NCBI GenBank assembly: GCA_041658665.1
Contig: JBAZZR010000001.1
Coordinates: 128,576-192,575, forward strand
Direction: 5' to 3'
Length of the DNA: 64,000 bases
Source: Patescibacteria group bacterium
GTDB taxonomy: Bacteria; Patescibacteriota; Patescibacteriia; Patescibacteriales; UBA12465
In this document: piece after piece, positions 22,875 to 64,000 of the stretch
How positions within the stretch are numbered: position 1 is the first letter of the stretch
How the letters are laid out: each line of letters starts with the position of its first letter
Translations under genes and position numbers: made by a program
The notes under the pieces: model-generated
Databases searched by the model: none
What the model was told of the DNA's origin: nothing
What the model saw: the letters and a program-made list of their open reading frames with translations, nothing else

Positions 22875-24350
22875 GTGATGCGGATGAAGGCGCGATTAGA
22901 ATCATCATTTCCGAATAATATGTCTAACGATTATCAATTGTTTAAAAGGTATTTAAAACGAGATTGGTATGTCCAAGGTTTTAGCGCTGTACCGCTTTTT
23001 TTGTCGACGGCCGCGATCAGCGGGACTTTTATGAAGCGTTACTTGGGTTTTGGCTACCGCCATTTCTTATTCAGTTATCATGACGGCTATGGCGAGATGG
23101 CTTATGATCCGGCTGATTTTAAGCATGTCTGGCGGATGGTTAAGCGTCGGCTAAAAGCCGACCCGACATATCTAAAAAAAATCAAAGCGCTTTATTTTCG
23201 TAACTTGCGTCGCTACCAATCTTTTTTAAAAAAATTACAACCGGCCATCTTAGCTCGGGTTTCAGATCAAGAATTGCTTGTTATTTTTCAGCAATTAATC
23301 CTCGCTCAAGTAGATTATGTCGGCGTCGCTCATATCATCGACGCGATCGGTATGGAAATCGAGGGGGAACTCCGGCAACATTTAGGGCGAGAACTGCCCC
23401 CGAGCGCTCGCTCGCGCTTTAATGAAATCTTTTCCGCTCTGATTACACCAAGCCGTCCTTCCTTCGTGAGCCAAGAAGAGCAGGCCCTCCTGGCTATCCG
23501 CGGCGGCGTCAAAAATCAAGCCGCCCTAGAGCGTCACGCGACTAAATATTTTTGGCTGCAGAATAGCTACGCCGGACCGAAGAATATGACGGTGGCTGAT
23601 TTCAAGAAGCGGCTCGTAATCTTACGTCGCGAGAAAACTAAGGCCGCGACAAAAACTAAGATTAAATTTCCTTTTCGTCTTAGCCCCGAGCTAAAAGCTC
23701 TGCGAGCTATTACTGATTATTGTGCTGTCTGGCAGGATGAACGGAAAGCTTTGATATTCAAGAATATTTCTTATACCGGATTTGTCCTGAAAGAGTTAGC
23801 GCGTCGCCTAAAAAAACCGCTGGAATATTTCTGTTATTTAAGTTTGAGCGAAGTACGATCTTTACATTCTCTAGCCGATCTTAAGGGGATGATTAAAATT
23901 TTACAAGAAAGAAAACAGGGCTGTCTGATAGTCATCTACGGGATGACTGATAAAGTTATCAGCGGCCACGATTATAAGCGTTTGCTCAATGGCCGGCATC
24001 GGTTGATAAAACAGCAAGATTTTGTCGCGCAGGAGCTCCACGGCACGGTGGCAAATATCGGTACGGCCATCGGGACGGTACGGATAATAAAGAACCTGTC
24101 GTCTCTAAAAGATTTTGCCGTTGGCGATATTCTAGTTGCTTCTATGACCAGACCGGAATTCATGCCGGCGATTAAGAAAGCGGCGGCCATCGTCACTGAC
24201 GAAGGCGGGGTTACTTGCCACGCGGCCATCATCGCCCGAGAACTTAATATTCCGACAATCATCGGCACCCGTATTGCGACCCAGGTCTTAAAAGACGGGA
24301 TGAAGATAGAAGTTCGGGCTAATCACGGGATAGTTAGGATCATTAACTAA
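22875..24350 (+). CDS. Swivel phosphohistidine domain protein, paralog 5 of 8
   Basis: C-terminus: AVGDILVASMTRPEFMPAI...DEGGVTCHAAIIARELNIPTIIGT...VRA. Anchors KRDWYVQ, KYFWLQNSYAGP, VWQDERK. The track start is GTG; ATG 22920 (MSNDYQ) fits the paralog alignment better. Confidence 0.85.
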   Translation: MMRMKARLESSFPNNMSNDYQLFKRYLKRDWYVQGFSAVPLFLSTAAISGTFMKRYLGFGYRHFLFSYHDGYGEMAYDPADFKHVWRMVKRRLKADPTYLKKIKALYFRNLRRYQSFLKKLQPAILARVSDQELLVIFQQLILAQVDYVGVAHIIDAIGMEIEGELRQHLGRELPPSARSRFNEIFSALITPSRPSFVSQEEQALLAIRGGVKNQAALERHATKYFWLQNSYAGPKNMTVADFKKRLVILRREKTKAATKTKIKFPFRLSPELKALRAITDYCAVWQDERKALIFKNISYTGFVLKELARRLKKPLEYFCYLSLSEVRSLHSLADLKGMIKILQERKQGCLIVIYGMTDKVISGHDYKRLLNGRHRLIKQQDFVAQELHGTVANIGTAIGTVRIIKNLSSLKDFAVGDILVASMTRPEFMPAIKKAAAIVTDEGGVTCHAAIIARELNIPTIIGTRIATQVLKDGMKIEVRANHGIVRIIN

Positions 24351-24351
24351 C

Positions 24352-25785
24352 ATGCTTAAAAATAAAATTGAAAAATTTATTATTTGGGAGAGGCCCTGTT
24401 ACCCAGGTTTAGTTTTTATCGCCGGTGAAGCGGTGGTTATTCCGCATCAGCGCGAGTTTGGCCGACCCTGGGCGAAAACCTATGCTTTTTGGTCAAAAGG
24501 AATGGTCAGATTCATTTGGCCAAAAAAGGAGTTTTTAGCCAATTCGCGTTTTATCGCACAGAATTTTTTAATTGATAGATATCTTATTTCTAAGTTAAAT
24601 AAATTTAAACAACTGGAGCGCAGATTAACTGACTGGCAAAAGAAATTAACTAGGGTAGATTTTAAGAAGTTGTCTGATCGTAATTTTTTGACGCTTATTC
24701 GACAATTTAATCAAGTTTATCTTAATTGGTGGGGCTGGGCGCAGGTAGCCGAACCGGCCGCCGCCGGCCTAGAATCAATTTTACGGGAAAAAATAAAATT
24801 GAGTCATGAGGAATTTAGTATTTTGACTACGCCAACTAAGAAGTCTTATACCATGGTCGAGGAGGAAGAAATTTTTACCTTAGCTTTAATATATAAGAGG
24901 ACTAGATCAATATCGGCCAAGAGGTTAGATCGACATGTGAAAAAATATTTTTGGATTAATAATGGTTATGATCATACTTATTTTCTTGATGCCGATTACT
25001 TCGCTCAGCGAGTGAAAGAGGCGGCCGCTAAGATGAGTGCGCGTCAGATTTCTAGGGCCTTGGCCGGTAATCAAGCTAGACTGTCGTCTAGCCAAGATAA
25101 GATAAAACAGTTGATGCGGCAACTTGGAGTATCGGCCGATATTAAGAAAGTCCTAACATTAATTGATTGGTTGGCCGATTTCCAGGATAAGCGAAAAGCG
25201 ACGTCGTTAAAAATTCATTTTTATCTGGATAAATTTATTAAAGAAGTGTCACGGCGAAGTTATATCACTTATGAGTCGGCTCGTTATTTAATTCCTCAGG
25301 AATACGCAGATGCCATACATGATAAATTGTTTTTGCCTTCTTTTCGACAAAGGCAAAAATATATGGGTATCGTTTATTCGGAGCAAGGTTTAAAATTATA
25401 TGTCGGGTTGGTTGCTAAAAAGATGGAAGAGAAGCTTTTAGGCCGCATTCAAGGATCCGAGACCAATGAAATCGAAGGCGCCCGAGCGATGGGCGGAAAG
25501 ATAGTTGGTCGAGCTAGATTAATTTTAAAAAAGGGTGATATTAATAAGATAAAAGCCGGTGAAATATTGGTGACAACCATGACTTCTCCAGACTTTATTG
25601 CCGCGATGAAGAAAGCCGCCGCGATAGTAACCGATGAAGGCGGTTTAACCTGTCATGCGGCGATAATTAGTCGGGAACTTGGCCTGCCTTGCGTTATCGG
25701 GACAAAAATTGCTACGCGGGTTATCAAAGATGGTGACTGGCTTGAAGTTAATGCTAATCATGGGATAATAAAAATTATCAGATAA
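24352..25785 (+). CDS. Swivel phosphohistidine domain protein, paralog 6 of 8
   Basis: C-terminus: KAGEILVTTMTSPDFIAAM...DEGGLTCHAAIISRELGLPCVIGT...DGDWLEVNA. Anchors FIIWERP, KYFWINNGYDH, FQDKRK. Only a 1-nt gap from paralog 5. Confidence 0.85.
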   Translation: MLKNKIEKFIIWERPCYPGLVFIAGEAVVIPHQREFGRPWAKTYAFWSKGMVRFIWPKKEFLANSRFIAQNFLIDRYLISKLNKFKQLERRLTDWQKKLTRVDFKKLSDRNFLTLIRQFNQVYLNWWGWAQVAEPAAAGLESILREKIKLSHEEFSILTTPTKKSYTMVEEEEIFTLALIYKRTRSISAKRLDRHVKKYFWINNGYDHTYFLDADYFAQRVKEAAAKMSARQISRALAGNQARLSSSQDKIKQLMRQLGVSADIKKVLTLIDWLADFQDKRKATSLKIHFYLDKFIKEVSRRSYITYESARYLIPQEYADAIHDKLFLPSFRQRQKYMGIVYSEQGLKLYVGLVAKKMEEKLLGRIQGSETNEIEGARAMGGKIVGRARLILKKGDINKIKAGEILVTTMTSPDFIAAMKKAAAIVTDEGGLTCHAAIISRELGLPCVIGTKIATRVIKDGDWLEVNANHGIIKIIR

Positions 25786-25794
25786 TATTTATAT

Positions 25795-27240
25795 ATGTCA
25801 GATAAATTTAATCCAATTATCTCCCGAACCACTAAGTTTTCTTTCGCCGACTGCTTGCGTAGCCTACGGAATGATAAAGAATGGATTGTTCAAGAAGCCC
25901 CGGCCGCTCCTTGGTATTGGTGGATTTCTTCAGCCGCCTGGATCCAGGGTTTGACTCAGGCTGGTTATTCACCAGGTAATTTTGTTACCTATTGTTCGGA
26001 CGAAGTTGGCACTTTAGTGGTTAATCGTTTAGTTTTTTTAAAATTAGCCAAAAAATTAATAAAAAAAGAGCTGGCTGGTAATTCAGTTATCAAAAGATGG
26101 CTGGTCCGGTGGAAGGGGACTAATAAAAAATATAATAAGCTCGCTACCCAGATACTTGATATGCGCCTAGATGGTTTATCGGAGTCGGCTTTTCTAGAGT
26201 TATTTGAAAATTTTTGTGCTCTTTATTTCGCGGTAGAGTCCTTACCGCTCGTTAATGAATTTTTTATTCCTTACTCCGACCAACTCTTAGGACGCTTGCA
26301 CGCGCAGTATCCTAATCAAATGGAAACTATCGCCCAGTTGATCGCGCCGCGCCAAAAATCATTTATTCAGATCGAGGAAGACGAATTGAAAAAAATAAAT
26401 AAATTGGTCGGCCGAAGTCAGGCGAAAGCGCTAACTAGACATTTAAAAAAATGGTTATTTATAAATGGTGGCTATGACGGACCTCACCCGGTAACTAAAC
26501 AGCAATTGCGTGCCAAGCTTAAAAAATTAAAAAATAATGAATCAGCTCGTCCGGTTAAGATCGGCTTAACTTCTTTTTTAGATCAAGAAACGAAAACCAT
26601 CCTGCGATTAATCAGCCTAGTTTCTGGTTGGAAAGATCAGCGTAAAAGGAATAATATGCTCGGTTCGGTCGTCCTAGACCGTTTTGCTAAAGCCTTTGTG
26701 ACCCGTTATCAGCTTGATTACCGGTTAGTCAGGTACGCTGTTCCAAGCGAATATCGGCTATTAGTTAAGGCCGATACTAAATTTTTAAAAACTCTGGAGC
26801 AACGAGTTAAGAGCGGCGCCGCCTGGGCTATCAGTCGGAATCGTTATTCTGGAATATTCTCGGAAGCTGAGTATCATAAGTTGCGGAAAGTAATTACTGC
26901 CCTTAAGCAACCCCAGGATATTTTAACCGGTTTGGCCGCTAGCCCAGGACGAGTCCGCGGTCGGATCCGAATTATCCATAATCCGGCGCGGGAGAAATTC
27001 ACGGCCGGCAGTATCCTTTTAACTTCGATGACTCGGCCAGAATTTGTCCCCTTGATCAAGAAAGCTAAGGCAGTCCTATGCGACGAGGGCGGATTATTAT
27101 CTCACGCCGCTATCGTTAGTCGCGAATTTAAGAAACCCTGTATCGTCGGATTGCATCAGGCGATGGCTAGCCTGCAGGACGGGGATCACGTAGAGGTTGA
27201 TGCTAATAGAGGTTTGGTTAAGATTTTAAAACATAATTAG
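25795..27240 (+). CDS. Swivel phosphohistidine domain protein, paralog 7 of 8
   Basis: C-terminus: TAGSILLTSMTRPEFVPLI...DEGGLLSHAAIVSREFKKPCIVGL...DGDHVEVDA. Anchors KEWIVQ, KKWLFINGGYDGP, GWKDQRK. Confidence 0.85.
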   Translation: MSDKFNPIISRTTKFSFADCLRSLRNDKEWIVQEAPAAPWYWWISSAAWIQGLTQAGYSPGNFVTYCSDEVGTLVVNRLVFLKLAKKLIKKELAGNSVIKRWLVRWKGTNKKYNKLATQILDMRLDGLSESAFLELFENFCALYFAVESLPLVNEFFIPYSDQLLGRLHAQYPNQMETIAQLIAPRQKSFIQIEEDELKKINKLVGRSQAKALTRHLKKWLFINGGYDGPHPVTKQQLRAKLKKLKNNESARPVKIGLTSFLDQETKTILRLISLVSGWKDQRKRNNMLGSVVLDRFAKAFVTRYQLDYRLVRYAVPSEYRLLVKADTKFLKTLEQRVKSGAAWAISRNRYSGIFSEAEYHKLRKVITALKQPQDILTGLAASPGRVRGRIRIIHNPAREKFTAGSILLTSMTRPEFVPLIKKAKAVLCDEGGLLSHAAIVSREFKKPCIVGLHQAMASLQDGDHVEVDANRGLVKILKHN

Positions 27241-27248
27241 TATTTATT

Positions 27249-28787
27249 ATGTCTCTTTTTATAACATCAGATTCGATCAAATCTAAAAAATGGTACCGTC
27301 AGCAGACCGAAGCGACGCCTTATTTTATTTATCTGCCTTGTCGTGGTGTAGTAGATTATTTTAAGAATAAGAAAGAAATAATCTGGTATTGCAGCTTAGA
27401 TGAGGCGCGGGGATATTTGGAACAGAATTATATCCGTGAATTGGCGGAAAAACATCTTGCGGCGGAAAAACATCGGCCCGGTTTTTCTAAGAAGCTGTAT
27501 GTTGGGTTTAGGCGCGATATTCAGGAGAAAGATCAGCGTTTATTCCAGGCGATCGACGGAATTGATCTAACAAAGATTAGTGATCAAAAATTATTAGCTT
27601 TTAACCGGTCTCTCGGCCGGCAGGCGTATGCGATGTGGTTGAAATTTTTCATGGATATTTTCGATGTCGACGCCGAGAGCCTGATCGAGCGGGAACTTAT
27701 TAGAGAGAAAAAAACTTTGACGGCGGAAGAGAAGAATCTTCTGACCACGTCGACTCAGCCCTTAGCGAACCAGGAGCAGGAATTGGAATTATTAAAGATT
27801 GTGAAATTAGTGAAAGATGACCCGGACTGCGTTTATCTATTGAATCGGATCCAATCCGCGGATAATATTCATCGTTTGATGTTACACCCCCGGCTTTTGC
27901 ATGGTCTGGAAGCTTATATTAAAAAATACCATTGGATCAGAAATAGCTGGGCTCATGTCAACTTTTTGAATGTATTTGATGTTGTCGATCAGATCAAACA
28001 GATTGTTTCCGGATCCAGAGATATAGACGCCGAAATCAAGCAATTAGAGAATTATAGTCAGGAATTGACCAGCCGGAAGAGAATAATTAGTAAGAAACAT
28101 CATCTTTCTAATTGGCTGGTTCGGATGTTTGAGATGTTCGGTTTCTTGGCGTTTTGGCGCGATAGTCGGAAGGTCCAGATGCAACAGCTGCATTATTATT
28201 TGCAGCTCGTCGGAACGGAGATCGCCCGGCGTAGCCAGTTGAGCTGGGATAAAATTAAATTTTGTGATCCTTTAAGTATCCAGACGATCCCGGTCAAGTC
28301 GCTAGTCTTGGCTCGTTGTTATAAATTTCATAAGAATAGTCGTTTGATGTATTGGGACGGGCGGGTGACTCGACATTTTGATCCGGCTTCGAGTAAGAAA
28401 TTAGTCGCCGCTCTAGAAAGTACATTCAGCACGGAAATGACCGAAATCCGCGGTCTGATTGCTTGCCCTGGCAAAATCAAAGGGGAAGTAGTAGTCATTA
28501 ATAAAAAAAGCGAGTTCAGAAAGATGATGCCGGGTAAAATTCTAGTGACGACGATGACTCGCCCGGATTTTTTGCCCCTGATGAGACAAGCGGCCGCGGT
28601 CGTAACTGACGAAGGCGGGATAACTTCGCATGCGGCTATCGTTTCTCGGGAGCTGAAGATTCCTTGTATCATCGGGACCCAGGTCGGCACTAAGGTTTTA
28701 AAAGATGGATATCAAGTTGAAGTTAATGCTAATCATGGGGTAGTTTTGGTTTTAGATAGCAAAGACCGTCCTCATCGCCAAAAATAA
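27249..28787 (+). CDS. Swivel phosphohistidine domain protein, paralog 8 of 8
   Basis: C-terminus: MPGKILVTTMTRPDFLPLM...DEGGITSHAAIVSRELKIPCIIGT...VEVNA. Anchors KKWYRQ, KKYHWIRNSW, FWRDSRK. Confidence 0.85.
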   Translation: MSLFITSDSIKSKKWYRQQTEATPYFIYLPCRGVVDYFKNKKEIIWYCSLDEARGYLEQNYIRELAEKHLAAEKHRPGFSKKLYVGFRRDIQEKDQRLFQAIDGIDLTKISDQKLLAFNRSLGRQAYAMWLKFFMDIFDVDAESLIERELIREKKTLTAEEKNLLTTSTQPLANQEQELELLKIVKLVKDDPDCVYLLNRIQSADNIHRLMLHPRLLHGLEAYIKKYHWIRNSWAHVNFLNVFDVVDQIKQIVSGSRDIDAEIKQLENYSQELTSRKRIISKKHHLSNWLVRMFEMFGFLAFWRDSRKVQMQQLHYYLQLVGTEIARRSQLSWDKIKFCDPLSIQTIPVKSLVLARCYKFHKNSRLMYWDGRVTRHFDPASSKKLVAALESTFSTEMTEIRGLIACPGKIKGEVVVINKKSEFRKMMPGKILVTTMTRPDFLPLMRQAAAVVTDEGGITSHAAIVSRELKIPCIIGTQVGTKVLKDGYQVEVNANHGVVLVLDSKDRPHRQK

Positions 28788-28790
28788 AAA

Positions 28791-28815
28791 CCCCCTATTC
28801 GGGGGAATTTATTTC
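28791..28815 (+). terminator. Hairpin terminator after paralog 8
   Basis: CCCCC-tattc-GGGGG (28791-28805) followed by aatttattt. It lies 3 nt after the stop codon. Confidence 0.55.
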
Positions 28816-28908
28816 TACACCAGGTAATTTGTTGGCTTAAACTTAACTATATTATTATAGCAAATTAATTTTCGATGCGTCAAATTTTTGATAATAGGCT
28901 AGCAACTG

Positions 28909-28976
28909 TGGACCCGCGGGGATTCGAACCCCGGAGACTTAATTGTTAAGTTTAAGTTCGCTACCTGGCCGGGCCC
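28909..28976 (-). tRNA. Aberrant tRNA-like gene (68 nt): intact acceptor stem and T-arm, reduced D-arm, oversized anticodon loop. Identity undetermined (central triplet UAA).
   Basis: Minus strand reads GGGCCCG-GCCAGGTAGCGA-ACTTAA-ACTTAACAA-TTAAGT-CTC-CGGGG-TTCGAAT-CCCCG-CGGGTCC-A. The acceptor stem is 7 bp with one G-U pair and the T-arm is perfect with a TTCGAAT loop. Only 12 nt are available for positions 8-26, and the anticodon loop is 9 nt (or 7 nt closed by an A-A mismatch). No encoded CCA. Confidence 0.5.
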
Positions 28977-29033
28977 ACAGCAAAATTTAGCTTAACAAAA
29001 TAAAGATTAAGAAAAAATAAATTATTTAATTTT

Positions 29034-29972
29034 ATGTTCATCAAATTTTTTAAAGACATTAGTAAAAAAAGCGTCGCTGAAGCTGGTGGCAAAGGAGCCT
29101 CTCTTGGCGAAATGACTAAAGCTGGTATCCCAGTCCCGCCCGGTTTTGTAATTTTAGCTGAGGCTTTTTATCGCTTCCTAGAAGAGACTGATTTGACCCA
29201 AGCGGTCCAGGCGATTTTGGACAAGATCAATTATAAAGACATCAATGCCGTCGACGGCGCTTCCGTTCAGATCCGATCCTTGATTCTTAAAGCGCCGATG
29301 CCGAAAGACTTGGAAAAGGATATTAAGGCCGATTTTAAAAAATTAAAAACAAAATTTGTCGCCGTTCGTTCCAGCGCGACGGCCGAAGATTCTTCCTCCG
29401 CTTCTTGGGCCGGCGAATTAGAAACTTATTTAAATACGACTGATAAAACGTTACTTTTGAATGTCAAAAAATGTTGGTCGTCTTTATTTACACCGCGTGC
29501 AATTTTTTATCGTCATGAGAAAAAATTATTAAAGACTAAGGTCGGCGTCGCGGTCGTTATTCAGCAAATGGTTGACTCAGAAATTTCCGGTATCGCTTTT
29601 ACGGTTCATCCGGTAACTCAAGATAAAAATCAAATGATCATCGAGGCAGGCTACGGACTCGGCGAAGCCATAGTTTCCGGCTCAATTACGCCCGATTCTT
29701 ATGTATTAGATAAGCGCGATTACTCTTTTTTAGATATTAATATTGCCGAACAAGCTCGGCAGATTGTTAAGGGAGCGACTGGTGGCGTTAAATGGGTTCC
29801 GGTTATTAAAAAAGCCCAGGCGAAGCAAAAATTAAACGGTCGGCAGATAGTTGAATTAGCAAAAATTTGTGCTGGCATTGAGAAGCATTATCAGTTTCCT
29901 TGTGATATCGAATGGGCCTATAAAGGGGGTAAATTTTATGTTACTCAGAGTCGTCCAATTACCACTCTTTAG
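29034..29972 (+). CDS. Stand-alone PPDK_N-type ATP-grasp (nucleotide-binding domain of the PEP synthase / pyruvate phosphate dikinase family)
   Basis: 312 aa. VAEAGGKGASLGEMTKAGIPVPPGFVI, FVAVRSSATAEDSSSASWAGELETYLN, and an ending YVTQSRPITTL typical of the end of this domain. It contains no His-swivel motif and no C-terminal PEP-binding domain. Confidence 0.88.
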   Translation: MFIKFFKDISKKSVAEAGGKGASLGEMTKAGIPVPPGFVILAEAFYRFLEETDLTQAVQAILDKINYKDINAVDGASVQIRSLILKAPMPKDLEKDIKADFKKLKTKFVAVRSSATAEDSSSASWAGELETYLNTTDKTLLLNVKKCWSSLFTPRAIFYRHEKKLLKTKVGVAVVIQQMVDSEISGIAFTVHPVTQDKNQMIIEAGYGLGEAIVSGSITPDSYVLDKRDYSFLDINIAEQARQIVKGATGGVKWVPVIKKAQAKQKLNGRQIVELAKICAGIEKHYQFPCDIEWAYKGGKFYVTQSRPITTL

Positions 29973-31506: not shown

Positions 31507-31932
31507 ATGCAGCAATTTACGGTGCCTCAATTTATTGATGTAGAAAACCAGATTATCGGACCGATAACGACTCGGCAATTTTTAATTTTTTTAGTCGCCG
31601 CGATAATTATTGGTTTAAGTTATAAGTTATTTGATTTTACTCTGTTTGTGATTATCGGCATTGTTGTCTTTTTAATTTCGGCTATTTTTGCTTTCGTTAA
31701 AATTAATGGCCGGCCTTTCCATCTATTTTTACTCAATACGATTCAAACTTTTCGTCGTCCAACTATTCGGGTTTGGAGCAATCAAGGGGCAATCGCCGAA
31801 AAAATTGAAAAGTCACTGCCGCTTGTCGCTGGTTATCAGGCCGCGCCGCCTAAATTTTATAAGGAATCTCGTTTAGCCGAACTGGCGCTGATTGTCGACA
31901 CCGAGGGGAAATATAAAGGCGAACAGTCTTAA
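31507..31932 (+). CDS. PrgI-like small membrane protein (Gram-positive-type T4SS component family)
   Basis: 141 aa. The N-terminus QFTVPQFIDVENQIIGPITTRQFLIFL is followed by two hydrophobic segments, the pattern I recognise from PrgI-family proteins. It sits two genes upstream of a VirB4-like ATPase. Confidence 0.6.
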   Translation: MQQFTVPQFIDVENQIIGPITTRQFLIFLVAAIIIGLSYKLFDFTLFVIIGIVVFLISAIFAFVKINGRPFHLFLLNTIQTFRRPTIRVWSNQGAIAEKIEKSLPLVAGYQAAPPKFYKESRLAELALIVDTEGKYKGEQS

Positions 31933-31942
31933 GTAATATCAT

Positions 31943-32623
31943 ATGTCAGCTAAAAATTTAGCCAAAAATAAAGTTAGCAACTATACTCAGGAATATTTGA
32001 ATATTGCGGAAATTAAGGATAATACAGTTGTTATGAAAGACGGAACTTTGCGCGCCGTTCTTTTAGTGTCTAGTATAAATTTTGCTTTAAAAAGCGAGGA
32101 TGAACAGAATGCCGTCATTAGCTCTTATATTCGTTTTTTAAATAACATCAGTTTCATGATGCAAATAGTCATTCAGTCGCGCGAATTAGATATTGATAAC
32201 TATTTACAATATTTAAAGTCGAAGGAGAAAGAACAAACCAATAAGCTTTTGAAAGTCCAGACCGCTGACTATATCGAATATATTCAGGAGCTTACTTCGC
32301 TAGGGAAAATTATGAATAAGCGTTTTTATGTCATTATTCCTTATGATCCTTTAACCGATAAGCACAAGAATTTTTTTAGTCTCATCGGGGAAGCGCTGAA
32401 GCCGGCGACTATTATTAAATTAAAAGAAACTACTTTTCAGAAATATCAGGATATGCTTGATCGCCGCGTCGAGAGCGTTTTAAATGGCCTTGAATCGATG
32501 GGGGTAGCGTCTATTCGTCTCGACACGCAGAGTTTAATAGAACTGTACTATAAGACCTATAATCCCGAGACGGCGAAGAATCAGGAGTTAGTCGATTTAG
32601 ATAAGCTTCGCGTTGAAAAATAA
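31943..32623 (+). CDS. Hypothetical protein between the PrgI-like and VirB4-like genes
   Basis: 226-aa ORF with tight spacing (10 nt and 5 nt) to its neighbours. No motif recognised. Confidence 0.6.
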   Translation: MSAKNLAKNKVSNYTQEYLNIAEIKDNTVVMKDGTLRAVLLVSSINFALKSEDEQNAVISSYIRFLNNISFMMQIVIQSRELDIDNYLQYLKSKEKEQTNKLLKVQTADYIEYIQELTSLGKIMNKRFYVIIPYDPLTDKHKNFFSLIGEALKPATIIKLKETTFQKYQDMLDRRVESVLNGLESMGVASIRLDTQSLIELYYKTYNPETAKNQELVDLDKLRVEK

Positions 32624-32628
32624 ATTAT

Positions 32629-34530
32629 ATGATCGATTTCAGTAAGCAAGAAGAACAAAATAATAAGATTAAATTAACTACCCCGTTAACTTTAACTGGT
32701 CAGCCGGTTAAGCCGGCTATTGAAGATAATCCGGAGATGACGAGGGAAATTATTGAGGAAGAAAAGGCTTTTCGACGCGGGGTTTTATCCGTTCGCGATA
32801 TTATCGCGCCGGCCAGCCTGAAAGTTGAGCCGACTTTATTACGGCTCGGTAATAAATTTTTGCGAACGATTTTTGTCGTTAGTTATCCGCGTTATATTTC
32901 GGTCGGTTGGTTCGCTCCGATTATTAATCTTAATTTTAGCTTTGATGTTTCGATGTTTTTTTATCCGGTTAAGAGCGCGATAATTTTAAAACAGTTAAAA
33001 AATAAAGTCGGCGCGCTAGAAGCGCAGATAGTCGGCGACGCGGAGAAGGGGGCGGCGCGCGATCCTTTACGGGAAACCGCCTTACGCGATATTGAATATT
33101 TACGCGACGCGCTTACTCAAGGTACGGAAAAATTCTTTCAATTCGGTTTGTACGTTACTCTTTACGCCGATAATCAAGAAGAGCTCGACCGTTTATCGGA
33201 TCAAATTGAAGACGTTTTCGGCTCCCGCCTAGTTTATTCTCGCCGGGTTTACTACCAATCTGAACAAGGTTTTAACTCGACTTTGCCTTTAGGCGACGAT
33301 GAGCTTTATATTACTTTTAACATGAACTCATCGCCTATTGCTTCGTCTTTTCCCTTTATTTCCAGCGAGCTGACGAGTGATCGGGGAATTCTATACGGGA
33401 TTAACCGGCATAACAATAGTTTAATTCTTTTTGATCGTTTTAGTTTACAAAATGCTAACTCCGTAGTTTTTGCTACTTCCGGGGCGGGGAAAAGCTACGC
33501 GATAAAATTAGAAATTTTACGCTCTTTAATGTTAGGGACGGAAGTTATCGTGATTGATCCGGAATATGAGTATAAACATTTATCGGAAGCCGTGGGCGGG
33601 ACTTATATTAATATTTCTTTGTCTTCGGAAAATAAAATTAATCCCTTTGATTTACCGCGTTCCATCGGCGGTGAAGCTAAACCTAAAGATATAATTAGGA
33701 GTGCGGTGATAACTTTAAAGGGTTTAGTTCGTTTAATGCTCGGTAATTTAAGCTATGATGAAGATTCAATTGTCGATCGCGCTTTGTTAGAAACTTACGC
33801 TAAGAAAGATATTACGCCGGACTCGGATTTAAGTAAAATAGAGGCGCCGATTGTTTCTGATTTTGAACAGATTCTCGAGGGGATGGAGGGCGGCGGCGAT
33901 TTAGCTTTGCGTCTTAAAAAGTTTACGCAAGGGACCTTCGCCGGGTTACTGAATAACCAGACTAATGTCGAGATGGATAATCAATTGGTTTGTTTTTCAG
34001 TTCGCGATTTAGAAGATGAACTTCGACCGATTGCGATTTATACGATCGTCAATTATATTTGGAACGTAGTGCGCAGCGAAATGAAGAAGCGGATTTTAGT
34101 GATTGATGAAGCCTGGTGGATGATGCAGCATGAAGATAGCGCTAAATTTATTTTTGCTTTAGTCAAACGTTGCCGTAAATATTATTTAGGGGTGACGACG
34201 ATTACTCAGGACGTTAATGACTTTTTGACTTCGCCCTACGGCCAAGCGATTGTTACTAACTCTTCGCTCCAAATTTTATTGAAGCAGTCGCCGGCGGCGA
34301 TTGATCTAGTCAAAAAAACCTTTTTACTAACTGAAGGCGAAAAATATTTATTATTAGAATGCGGGGTCGGAGAGGGAATATTTTTTGCCGGGAATAAACA
34401 CGTGGCTATGAAAGCAGTCGCTTCTTATTCCGAGGACCAATTAATTACTTCGGATCCGCGACAGCTCCTAGAAATAGAAGAAGCGAAAAAAGAATTTGAT
34501 GAGAGCCAGGCGGCGGAAACGACGACTTAA
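32629..34530 (+). CDS. VirB4/TrbE/PrgJ-like T4SS-type ATPase
   Basis: 633 aa. Walker A FATSGAGKSYA, Walker B RILVIDEAWWMM, then GVTTITQDVNDF. Confidence 0.8.
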   Translation: MIDFSKQEEQNNKIKLTTPLTLTGQPVKPAIEDNPEMTREIIEEEKAFRRGVLSVRDIIAPASLKVEPTLLRLGNKFLRTIFVVSYPRYISVGWFAPIINLNFSFDVSMFFYPVKSAIILKQLKNKVGALEAQIVGDAEKGAARDPLRETALRDIEYLRDALTQGTEKFFQFGLYVTLYADNQEELDRLSDQIEDVFGSRLVYSRRVYYQSEQGFNSTLPLGDDELYITFNMNSSPIASSFPFISSELTSDRGILYGINRHNNSLILFDRFSLQNANSVVFATSGAGKSYAIKLEILRSLMLGTEVIVIDPEYEYKHLSEAVGGTYINISLSSENKINPFDLPRSIGGEAKPKDIIRSAVITLKGLVRLMLGNLSYDEDSIVDRALLETYAKKDITPDSDLSKIEAPIVSDFEQILEGMEGGGDLALRLKKFTQGTFAGLLNNQTNVEMDNQLVCFSVRDLEDELRPIAIYTIVNYIWNVVRSEMKKRILVIDEAWWMMQHEDSAKFIFALVKRCRKYYLGVTTITQDVNDFLTSPYGQAIVTNSSLQILLKQSPAAIDLVKKTFLLTEGEKYLLLECGVGEGIFFAGNKHVAMKAVASYSEDQLITSDPRQLLEIEEAKKEFDESQAAETTT

Positions 34531-39824: not shown

Positions 39825-39866
39825 ATAATATTAATATTGGTTGATTATATCTAGCTCGTTTATTAG

Positions 39867-39938
39867 TGCTTCCGCCAGGAATCGAACCTGGATTACAAGA
39901 TCCGCAATCTTGTGTCCTATCCTTTGAACGACGAAAGC
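39867..39938 (-). tRNA. tRNA-Arg (anticodon GCG)
   Basis: 72-nt cloverleaf on the minus strand: GCTTTCG-TC-GTTC-AAAGGATA-GGAC-A-CAAGA-TTGCGGA-TCTTG-TAAT-CCAGG-TTCGATT-CCTGG-CGGAAGC-A. Confidence 0.85.
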
Positions 39939-40614: not shown

Positions 40615-40705
40615 GGAGAGGTGGCTGAGCGGTTGAAAGCGGCAGGTTGCTAACCTGTTATACGTTTTTATTAGCGTATCAAGGGTTCGAATCCCTTCCT
40701 CTCCG
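40615..40705 (+). tRNA. tRNA-Ser (anticodon GCT), class II with a long variable arm. Its 3' end is the island integration site.
   Basis: 91 nt. GGAGAGG acceptor stem, anticodon loop TTGCTAA, variable-arm stem ATACG/CGTAT, T-arm AAGGG-TTCGAAT-CCCTT, 3' strand CCTCTCC plus discriminator G. Confidence 0.9.
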
Positions 40706-40707
40706 CA
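40688..40707 (+). repeat. attL-side copy of the 20-bp direct repeat (tRNA-Ser 3' end)
   Basis: CGAATCCCTTCCTCTCCGCA is identical to 55336-55355. Confidence 0.9.
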
Positions 40708-63859: not shown

Positions 63860-63946
63860 GGAGAGGTGCCAGAGCGGTCGAATGGAACAGTCTTGAAAAC
63901 TGTCGTCGGTGCAAGCCGACCGTGGGTTCGAATCCCACCCTCTCCG
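63860..63946 (+). tRNA. tRNA-Ser (anticodon TGA), class II
   Basis: 87 nt. GGAGAGG acceptor stem, anticodon arm ACAGT-CTTGAAA-ACTGT, long variable arm, T-arm GTGGG-TTCGAAT-CCCAC, 3' strand CCTCTCC plus G. Confidence 0.9.
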
Positions 63947-64000
63947 CAGAGACAAATTAGCATTAAGCTAATCAAGTATATAATAAAATCTATATGAGAT

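What the first reader, a model, noticed from the sequence alone, without database searches (positions are those of the whole stretch)
28909..28976. Aberrant 68-nt tRNA-like gene antisense between the paralog array and the ATP-grasp gene
The minus strand folds into a perfect 7-bp acceptor stem (GGGCCCG/CGGGTCC) and a canonical T-arm (CGGGG-TTCGAAT-CCCCG). Only 12 nt are available for the whole D-region. The anticodon stem (ACTTAA/TTAAGT) closes a 9-nt loop, ACTTAACAA, whose centre is UAA. A Leu (UAA) identity would be inconsistent with the missing long variable arm. It could be a decayed tRNA or att remnant, a non-canonical decoder with an expanded anticodon loop, or a tRNA-like regulatory or processing element.
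Basis: seen in the sequence. Interest (0 to 1): 0.55.

Follow-up and report, generated by a model that had tools for sequence, protein, structure and literature searches.

The report
Mini tmRNA-like RNA with antisense partner
The odd "tRNA" is a conserved 68-nt gene resembling only the tRNA-like head of the ribosome-rescue RNA tmRNA, and just downstream lies a second small RNA gene that co-evolves to base-pair with it, a two-RNA module I did not find described in the papers searched.

Summary
The 68-nt tRNA-like sequence is real, at 28976-28909 on the minus strand. It is neither a decayed tRNA nor a decoder. ARAGORN and Rfam's curated thresholds do not call it. In relaxed mode the best Rfam match is tmRNA, covering only the tRNA-like domain (TLD): a 7-bp acceptor stem with G3:U70 and A73, a D region without a stem, and a T-arm. 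There is no tag reading frame.

It belongs to a 240-bp module found in 16 loci of related Patescibacteria (CPR). The order is promoter P1, TLD RNA, near-consensus promoter P2, a ~60-nt small RNA, then a terminator. The small RNA's 5' part is complementary to TLD nucleotides 8-35 (D region, hairpin 5' strand and "anticodon" loop).

That pairing covaries strongly: 94% of cells paired, 14 of 27 pairs changed on both sides, and G:U outnumbers A:C 44 to 11. The TLD core stays about 90% identical while the pairing segments diverge to about 63%. A second, divergent module with the same layout sits in tandem in two loci.

Best reading: a TLD-only tmRNA-like RNA controlled by a cognate antisense RNA. 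Its cellular role is inferred, not shown; options are SmpB titration in a toxin-antitoxin-like module, or tag-less ribosome rescue.

The parts
28998..29023 (-). T-rich conserved motif upstream of promoter P1 (consensus TTTATCTTTTCTTTATC)
   Evidence: Nearly invariant T/A columns 4-17 of alignment A1. Also present upstream of the divergent module B in L043 and L048. Function unknown.
28989..28997 (-). Promoter P1: extended -10 (TGTTAAGCT), 12 nt before G1 of the tRNA-like RNA
   Evidence: A TANNNT box lies 10-12 nt upstream of G1 in all 16 loci, most with TGn. Coordinates. No good -35. Prediction only.
28977..28980 (-). 5' leader CUGU, pairs with the 3' trailer ACAG and extends the acceptor stem to 11 bp
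   Evidence: Pairs 67-142 to 70-139 of A1 are kept in 15-16 of 16 loci, with one compensatory UA->CG change in L022.
28909..28976 (-). 68-nt TLD-only tmRNA-like RNA. Acceptor 5' strand 28970-28976; D region 28958-28969; hairpin 5' strand 28952-28957; 9-nt loop 28943-28951; hairpin 3' strand 28937-28942; T-arm 28917-28933; acceptor 3' strand 28910-28916; A73 at 28909
   Evidence: Sequence; coordinates. Best Rfam match is tmRNA RF00023, TLD only, 32.2 bits, below the gathering score of 47. Model R1 gives 99 bits. G3:U70 is present in 15 of 16 aligned rows; the 16th, L054, is misaligned by an insertion.
28945..28969 (-). Segment of the tRNA-like RNA bound by the small RNA: H2 target GCCAGGUAG 28961-28969 and H1 target CUUAAACUUAAC 28945-28956
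28906..28908 (-). 3' trailer CAG (no encoded CCA)
   Evidence: The window's three genuine tRNA genes also lack an encoded CCA and carry C after the discriminator.
28854..28883 (-). Promoter P2: TTGACG, 18-nt spacer, TGC-TATAAT (11 of 12 matches to consensus, extended -10)
   Evidence: A TTGA-type -35 hexamer (TTGAC in 15 of 16), a 16-18-nt spacer and a TATAAT-like -10 are readable in all 16 loci; the regex tally mis-registers three of them (with the alignment).
28786..28847 (-). Predicted ~60-nt antisense small RNA. H1 partner GUUAAGUUUAAG 28836-28847; H2 partner UUACCUGGU 28819-28827; conserved GUAGAnAUAAAUU 28806-28818
   Evidence: Complementarity and covariation with the tRNA-like RNA. Cognate duplexes average -40.6 kcal/mol against -27.4 for non-cognate pairs. 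The start is inferred from the P2 -10 box. No expression data.
28781..28810 (.). Bidirectional intrinsic terminator (AAAUUCCCCC GAAUA GGGGGUUUUUAUUUU), shared with the convergent PEP-utilizers gene that ends at 28787
   Evidence: One search finds terminator-like sites on both strands. Conserved in all 16 modules.

Best explanation
The locus is a two-gene RNA module on the minus strand.

Gene 1 is driven by an extended -10 promoter. It makes a minimal tmRNA-like RNA that has only the tRNA-like domain: an acceptor/T-arm minihelix with alanine identity (G3:U70, A73), a D region without a stem, and a short hairpin where tmRNA has helix P2. It has no tag reading frame and no pseudoknots. Like the host's tRNAs it would need RNase P, 3' trimming and CCA addition.

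Gene 2 has its own near-consensus promoter and shares the terminator. It makes a ~60-nt RNA whose 5' end is complementary to the hairpin loop (a YUNR-type UUGA/UUAA loop), the hairpin 5' strand and the D region.

Proposed mechanism (inferred). The small RNA nucleates on the loop and zips through nucleotides 8-35. This opens the hairpin and sequesters the D-loop GG that forms the tRNA elbow, which is the surface SmpB uses on tmRNA. The tRNA-like RNA is thereby inactivated or marked for duplex cleavage.

Gene 1 has no terminator of its own, so every primary transcript also carries the antisense segment, and P2 adds more. The antidote is therefore made in excess.

The free tRNA-like RNA would most likely engage AlaRS and SmpB. 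It would act either as a competitor of full-length tmRNA or as a tag-less rescue RNA.

Shown: the sequence features, the conservation and the covariation. Inferred: expression, processing, charging, SmpB binding and the outcome of pairing.
For: tmRNA is the best Rfam match in the tRNA/tmRNA clan for the window copy and wherever a related copy matches that clan. The match always covers the TLD only (22-39 bits).

G3:U70 and A73 are conserved. Host tRNA genes also lack an encoded CCA.

The whole module is present in 16 loci, and both promoters and the terminator are conserved.

The long-range pairing is 94% paired over 27 pairs. Fourteen pairs change on both sides (52 cells). The covariation score is 0.462 against 0.224 in shuffles (0 of 500 reach it). 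Slid controls are at most 42% paired.

G:U outnumbers A:C 44 to 11, so selection acts on minus-strand RNA.

Cognate duplexes average -40.6 kcal/mol and non-cognate ones -27.4. Two copies on one contig (L044, L053) are mutually orthogonal.

The local hairpin also covaries, with 3 of 6 pairs changed on both sides, so two mutually exclusive structures are both under selection.

The TLD core is about 90% identical, the pairing segments about 63%, and the neighbouring gene 73%.

A second, divergent module (B) with the same architecture and its own 20-nt complementarity lies in tandem in L043 and L048.

Precedent from papers: CDS-less, TLD-only tmRNA forms exist, including three in Patescibacteria (PMC11915505). 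A TLD-only molecule strongly inhibits tmRNA in E. coli, perhaps by titrating SmpB (PMC4131195, citing Mao et al. 2009).
Against: There are no expression data of any kind.

The tmRNA match is below Rfam's gathering score (32 against 47 bits). The tmRNA D-loop motif UUCGAC and the GGAC before the T-arm are not preserved, so SmpB binding is unproven.

The acceptor and T stems are almost invariant. They rest on resemblance to tRNA, not on covariation.

The conserved leader/trailer pairing could mean that the ends are never freed for charging.

A full 27-bp duplex with an intact minihelix looks sterically strained.

The window's own pair is the weakest (12 + 9 bp, -25 kcal/mol) and is not clearly better than shuffles on energy alone.

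I could not check whether the same genome has a standard ssrA or smpB.

The module sits inside PEP-utilizers/PPDK_N gene arrays in 11 of 16 loci. This explanation does not account for that association.
Confidence: 0.5

Rival explanations
1. RNA-only toxin-antitoxin or addiction module. The TLD mimic is toxic because it titrates SmpB, AlaRS or EF-Tu, and a labile antisense RNA made in excess is the antidote. This is a specific version of the best explanation.
For: The distribution and location are patchy. Close relatives lack the module at this site, and one 205,910-bp contig carries it elsewhere (L003 against L052). Two or more orthogonal copies occur per contig. The specificity region diverges fast. 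The antisense is co-transcribed and also has its own strong promoter. A TLD-only RNA inhibits tmRNA in E. coli (PMC4131195).
Against: No toxicity data. The module is not found on phage or viral contigs. Some copies lie between housekeeping genes, for example ligA and gatA in L052. The very strong conservation of the core would also fit a housekeeping RNA.
Confidence: 0.2
2. Tag-less ribosome-rescue RNA, or the lineage's only tmRNA. It would work like the CDS-less mitochondrial and plastid tmRNAs, with the small RNA as a regulator.
For: The TLD features and alanine identity. CDS-less tmRNAs are known in organelles and are suspected in one Patescibacteria species (PMC11915505).
Against: Standard tmRNA was found in 5252 of 6765 Patescibacteria genomes, so it is probably present here too. 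Multiple orthogonal copies and variable positions are unusual for ssrA.
Confidence: 0.12
3. New kind of two-piece tmRNA, in which the small RNA is the mRNA-like piece supplied in trans.
For: The two RNAs pair, and many copies have GUG-UAG or GCG-UAG just after the second helix.
Against: There is no conserved reading frame. Single-nucleotide indels (A1 column 264) and a variable-length loop shift the frame, and L021, L045 and L054 lack the UAG. No pseudoknot is apparent in the aligned sequences (no dedicated search was made). The putative codon would lie in the TLD core.
Confidence: 0.05
4. Dedicated alanine carrier for a non-ribosomal use, such as cell-wall cross-bridges or lipid aminoacylation. 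It would be charged by AlaRS through G3:U70 and switched off by the small RNA.
For: From established knowledge, an acceptor/T minihelix with G3:U70 suffices for AlaRS. The element has no anticodon function.
Against: No Fem-type or MprF-type gene is seen next to any module. The small RNA does not cover the acceptor end.
Confidence: 0.07
5. Decayed tRNA or att remnant, a decoder tRNA with a 9-nt anticodon loop, or a DNA-level inverted repeat.
For: The tRNA-like shape, and the inverted repeat at the DNA level.
Against: Sixteen conserved copies have promoters and compensatory changes. The 'anticodon' varies between copies. G:U outnumbers A:C 44 to 11. ARAGORN and the Rfam tRNA model do not call it.
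Confidence: 0.03

Closest known systems
CDS-less ('TLD-only') tmRNA forms: mycobacteriophage DS6A, ~65-bp plastid genes of Mallomonadaceae, mitochondrial tmRNA, and 'Standard, no CDS' entries of the tmRNA database, including three in Patescibacteria (PMC11915505, PMC4131195)
   Same: About 65-70 nt. Acceptor stem with G3:U70 and A73, a D loop without a stem, a T-arm, and a short hairpin in place of the mRNA-like domain. Scores better with the tmRNA model than with the tRNA model.
   Different: Here there is a dedicated, co-evolving antisense RNA gene immediately downstream. Two or more orthogonal copies occur per contig, and the leader/trailer pairing is conserved. No partner was found next to the two TLD-only-like elements from high-GC contigs, one of them viral (L042, L055). 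Whether the three database Patescibacteria entries are this family is unknown.
Standard tmRNA (Rfam RF00023)
   Same: The tRNA-like domain, and presumably the same processing and charging enzymes.
   Different: About 300 model positions are missing: pseudoknots, resume codon and tag frame. The score is below the gathering threshold. The UUCGAC and GGAC motifs are not kept.
Antisense-RNA control systems (type I toxin-antitoxin, plasmid copy-number control such as CopA/CopT and RNA I/RNA II, and RNA-RNA 'type VIII' pairs)
   Same: A short RNA with its own promoter and terminator. Its target is a hairpin with a YUNR-type loop. The specificity region diverges fast while staying complementary, and paralogous modules are orthogonal.
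   Different: The two genes lie in tandem on the same strand and do not overlap on opposite strands. The target is a tRNA-like non-coding RNA, not an mRNA or a primer. No toxic function has been demonstrated.
mascRNA/MEN-beta tRNA-like elements (RF01684)
   Same: A small tRNA-like RNA without a normal D arm or anticodon. It was the second-best Rfam match (28.4 bits).
   Different: Those are eukaryotic processing signals at the 3' ends of long transcripts. The match is below threshold (42.5 bits). There is no evidence of shared ancestry.

Membership tests
tRNA (RF00005 / ARAGORN) | Cloverleaf with a D arm, a 7-nt anticodon loop with U33, and a call by standard tRNA finders | tested here: not met
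   ARAGORN finds three tRNAs in the window but not this element, and none of the 16 copies. Rfam at gathering thresholds gives no hit. The D region is 12 nt with at most a 3-bp stem. The loop is 9 nt and its centre varies between copies.
tmRNA (RF00023) | 7-bp acceptor stem with G3:U70 and discriminator A73 | tested here: met
   GU in 15 of 16 aligned rows, with A after the stem in all.
tmRNA (RF00023) | tRNA-like T-arm and a D loop with GG but no D stem | tested here: met
   The T loop is UUCRANU and the GG of the D region is invariant.
tmRNA (RF00023) | mRNA-like domain with a resume codon, tag reading frame and stop | tested here: not met
   Only 11 nt replace 306 model positions. There is no conserved frame in the element or in the partner RNA.
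tmRNA (RF00023) | Score at or above Rfam's gathering threshold (47 bits) | tested here: not met
   32.2 bits in the window; 22-39 bits in relatives.
tmRNA (RF00023) | Works with SmpB, and smpB is present in the genome | not testable with these tools
   No smpB was found in the window, in 10 kb beyond it, or in any locus. The rest of the 821,845-bp contig could not be read.
TLD-only / CDS-less tmRNA forms | About 65 nt consisting of little more than the TLD, and closer to tmRNA than to tRNA | tested here: met
   68 nt. Where the window copy or a related copy matches the tRNA/tmRNA clan (one search listed 7 of the 10 module-A copies scanned), tmRNA is the best family, and always over the TLD only.
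TLD-only / CDS-less tmRNA forms | Charged with alanine, binds SmpB, or interferes with tmRNA | not testable with these tools
   Needs biochemistry or genetics. The precedent is known only from the literature.
Antisense-RNA control module | Partner RNA with its own promoter and terminator, and extended complementarity that covaries with the target | tested here: met
   The promoters are predictions from sequence only.
Antisense-RNA control module | Both RNAs are expressed, and pairing changes the level or activity of the target | not testable with these tools
   No transcriptome data are available here.

The most novel reading that the evidence does not exclude
An all-RNA toxin-antitoxin or defence-like module of CPR bacteria. 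The 'toxin' would be a minimal tmRNA mimic that poisons ribosome rescue or sequesters AlaRS or SmpB. A co-evolving antisense RNA would neutralise it, and several orthogonal copies would coexist in one genome.
Probability: 0.2. Interest if true: 0.85.

Novelty: new variant of a known kind. Interest (0 to 1): 0.62.

Why it matters
TLD-only tmRNA-like genes have been noted only as rare curiosities, in one phage, a few organelles and a handful of database entries. Their biology is unknown, apart from one report that such a molecule blocks tmRNA.

This family comes with a built-in, co-evolving antisense partner and with orthogonal paralogues. That implies the free RNA is potent enough to need dedicated control.

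It gives a directly testable system for two questions. What does a tRNA-like domain do on its own? And do CPR bacteria tune or sabotage trans-translation with RNA alone?

There is also a practical point. Such genes fall below the thresholds of ARAGORN and Rfam, so they are likely missed in CPR genome annotation.

Tried and rejected
- **ARAGORN and Rfam gathering thresholds.** Neither calls the element.
- **Tag reading frame in the small RNA.** Frames are broken by indels and the UAG is not universal, so this was rejected.
- **Third helix (small RNA AGAC/AGAU with element GUCU/AUCU).** Its single covarying pair cannot be told apart from many chance column pairs that follow the same clade split. 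It is also sterically awkward, so I dropped it.
- **DNA-level inverted repeat.** Disfavoured by the G:U to A:C ratio of 44:11.
- **Phage origin.** There is no BLAST match in 50,697 phage records for the module or for the viral TLD-like element L042. The pattern scan of viral contigs found only L042.
- **Antisense partner next to L042 or L055.** None better than shuffles.
- **Canonical tmRNA or smpB nearby.** None in the window, in 10 kb beyond its 3' end, or in 56 loci. The look-up meant to extend the 5' side failed.
- **Mao et al. 2009.** Not held in the library.
- **Literature searches.** Searches for tRNA-like RNAs in CPR bacteria, tRNA-like RNA toxins and TLD-only tmRNA found no description of this module.

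Full report
**Observation.** The 76-nt stretch folds far better than shuffles, with z = -4.7. ARAGORN and Rfam at curated thresholds find the window's three ordinary tRNAs but not this element.

**What it resembles.** With relaxed thresholds the best Rfam match is tmRNA (RF00023, 32.2 bits, gathering score 47). The two ends of the model align and 306 internal positions are replaced by 11 nt. The match therefore covers only the tRNA-like domain (TLD): a 7-bp acceptor stem with G3:U70 and A73 (the alanine identity set, from established knowledge), a D region with GG but no stem, and a T-arm. The absence of an encoded CCA is normal for this genome, because its three genuine tRNA genes also lack it.

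**Host and relatives.** The window comes from an 821,845-bp contig of a Patescibacteria (CPR) genome. Loci around PPDK_N homologues and a pattern scan of metagenome contigs gave 15 further copies of the element. In relaxed mode tmRNA is again the best family of the tRNA/tmRNA clan wherever a related copy matches that clan.

**The surroundings are conserved as a unit.** The module runs in this order:
- a T-rich motif and an extended -10 box 10-12 nt before G1 (P1);
- a CUGU leader that pairs with the ACAG trailer;
- the 68-nt RNA;
- a spacer of 4-29 nt;
- a near-consensus promoter, TTGACN, 16-18 nt, TGnTATAAT (P2);
- a ~60-nt RNA;
- an intrinsic terminator, shared in the window with the convergent protein gene.

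In the window P2 is at 28883-28854 and the small RNA runs from about 28847 to about 28786.

**The key finding.** The 5' part of the downstream RNA is complementary to nucleotides 8-35 of the tRNA-like RNA. That stretch covers the D region, the 5' strand of the hairpin and the "anticodon" loop.

- On the 16-sequence alignment, 94% of cells in these 27 pairs are paired.
- Fourteen pairs change on both sides (52 cells).
- The covariation score is 0.462 against 0.224 in shuffles, and 0 of 500 shuffles reach it.
- Slid registers pair at 42% or less.
- G:U outnumbers A:C 44 to 11, so selection acts on RNA of the minus strand and not on a DNA repeat.
- Cognate duplexes average -40.6 kcal/mol and non-cognate ones -27.4.
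- Two copies on one contig (L044, L053) do not cross-pair.

The local 6-bp hairpin also covaries, with 3 of 6 pairs changed on both sides, although it is only 84% paired. Two mutually exclusive structures are therefore both maintained, which is the pattern of an antisense RNA invading a target hairpin. The loop carries a YUNR-type UUGA or UUAA.

The TLD core is about 90% identical between loci. The pairing segments are about 63% identical, and the adjacent protein gene is 73% identical at the DNA level.

**A second family.** A covariance model of the element recovered all 16 copies; the 15 it was built from match it by construction. It also found a divergent element 290 nt upstream of the main one in L043 and L048. 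That element has its own P1, G3:U70, P2, a 20-nt complementary small RNA and a terminator. The architecture therefore recurs in a paralogous family, in tandem. Two TLD-only-like elements from high-GC contigs, one of them viral (L042, L055), have no such partner.

- A pseudogene or att remnant is excluded by conservation, promoters and compensatory change.
- A decoder with a 9-nt loop is excluded. The central triplet differs between orthologues, and each loop change is mirrored in the partner RNA.
- A two-piece tmRNA with the small RNA as message is unlikely, because no reading frame survives the indels.

**Mechanism (inferred).** The small RNA should nucleate on the loop, open the hairpin and sequester the D-loop GG needed for the tRNA elbow. 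That is the side of the TLD which SmpB binds in tmRNA. The acceptor/T minihelix would be left intact but the RNA inactivated, or turned into a duplex substrate.

The first gene has no terminator, so each primary transcript carries its own antisense segment, and P2 adds more. The antidote is made in excess.

The literature offers a role for the free RNA. CDS-less, TLD-only tmRNA forms are catalogued, including three in Patescibacteria, where 5252 of 6765 genomes have a standard tmRNA (PMC11915505). A TLD-only molecule strongly inhibits tmRNA in E. coli, perhaps by titrating SmpB (PMC4131195).

Several features fit a toxin-antitoxin-like or regulatory inhibitor of trans-translation somewhat better than a housekeeping rescue RNA:
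- the patchy and variable genomic position (L003 against L052 on one contig);
- the orthogonal paralogues;
- the fast-evolving specificity region.

None of this has been tested.

**Limits.**
- There are no expression data.
- The acceptor and T stems rest on resemblance, not on covariation.
- The tmRNA motifs UUCGAC and GGAC are not kept.
- The window's own duplex is the weakest of the set.
- A full duplex with an intact minihelix may be strained.
- I could not read the rest of the genome to look for ssrA and smpB.
- The module's frequent position inside PEP-utilizers/PPDK_N arrays (11 of 16 loci) is unexplained.

**Verdict.** This is a real, conserved pair of small-RNA genes. It is a new variant of the rare TLD-only tmRNA kind, distinguished by a dedicated co-evolving antisense partner.

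Noticed in passing
window 22875-29972 (+): Four paralogues (477-512 aa) each have an unknown ~400-aa N-terminal domain and a C-terminal PEP-utilizers swivel domain. A separate PPDK_N ATP-grasp gene follows them. In PDB searches the ATP-grasp aligns to residues 5-316, and paralogue 4's C-terminus (the only one searched against the PDB) to residues 765-867, of entries 5fbs and 5hv1, which I recall as the Listeria rifampin phosphotransferase. This looks like a split enzyme with one kinase domain and many substrate-plus-swivel subunits. The RNA module sits inside such arrays in 11 of 16 loci.
   Followed up: partly
L043 390-640 (+); L048 2250-2500 (+): A second, divergent tRNA-like-plus-antisense module (GGGGGCG...CGCCTCC-A, G3:U70) lies in tandem 290 nt upstream of the main module. 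It has its own promoters, a 20-nt complementarity and a terminator.
   Followed up: partly
L054 9959-10053 (-): This copy carries a 20-nt hairpin-forming insertion (TGCCTACCGGCAGGCAGGCC) between the T-stem 3' strand and the acceptor 3' strand. It may be a disrupted copy or an extra arm.
   Followed up: no
L042 2800-2867 (+); L055 2234-2300 (+): TLD-only-like elements with G3:U70 occur in a high-GC viral contig and in a high-GC metagenome contig, without an antisense partner. In L055 the leader and trailer form a perfect extra 10 bp (GAGATTGGGT/ACCCAATCTC), and ARAGORN calls the element tRNA-Leu(caa).
   Followed up: partly
window 28998-29023 (-), and the same place in all modules: The T-rich motif TTTATCTTTTCTTTATC upstream of the first promoter is conserved in both module families. 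It could be a promoter UP-like element or a protein-binding site.
   Followed up: no
window 39866-39938, 40615-40706, 63860-63947: The three genuine tRNA genes lack an encoded CCA and have C after the discriminator. tRNA 3' ends in this organism must therefore be built post-transcriptionally.
   Followed up: yes
window 31507-34530 (+): PrgI-like, TraC-like and VirB4/TraG-type ATPase genes, a type IV secretion-like set, lie directly downstream of the PPDK_N gene.
   Followed up: no
L057 15144-15689 and 19037-19597 (beyond the window's 3' end): Two RelB/ParE-YafQ toxin-antitoxin pairs and a further PEP-utilizers-domain gene lie within 10 kb past the window.
   Followed up: no
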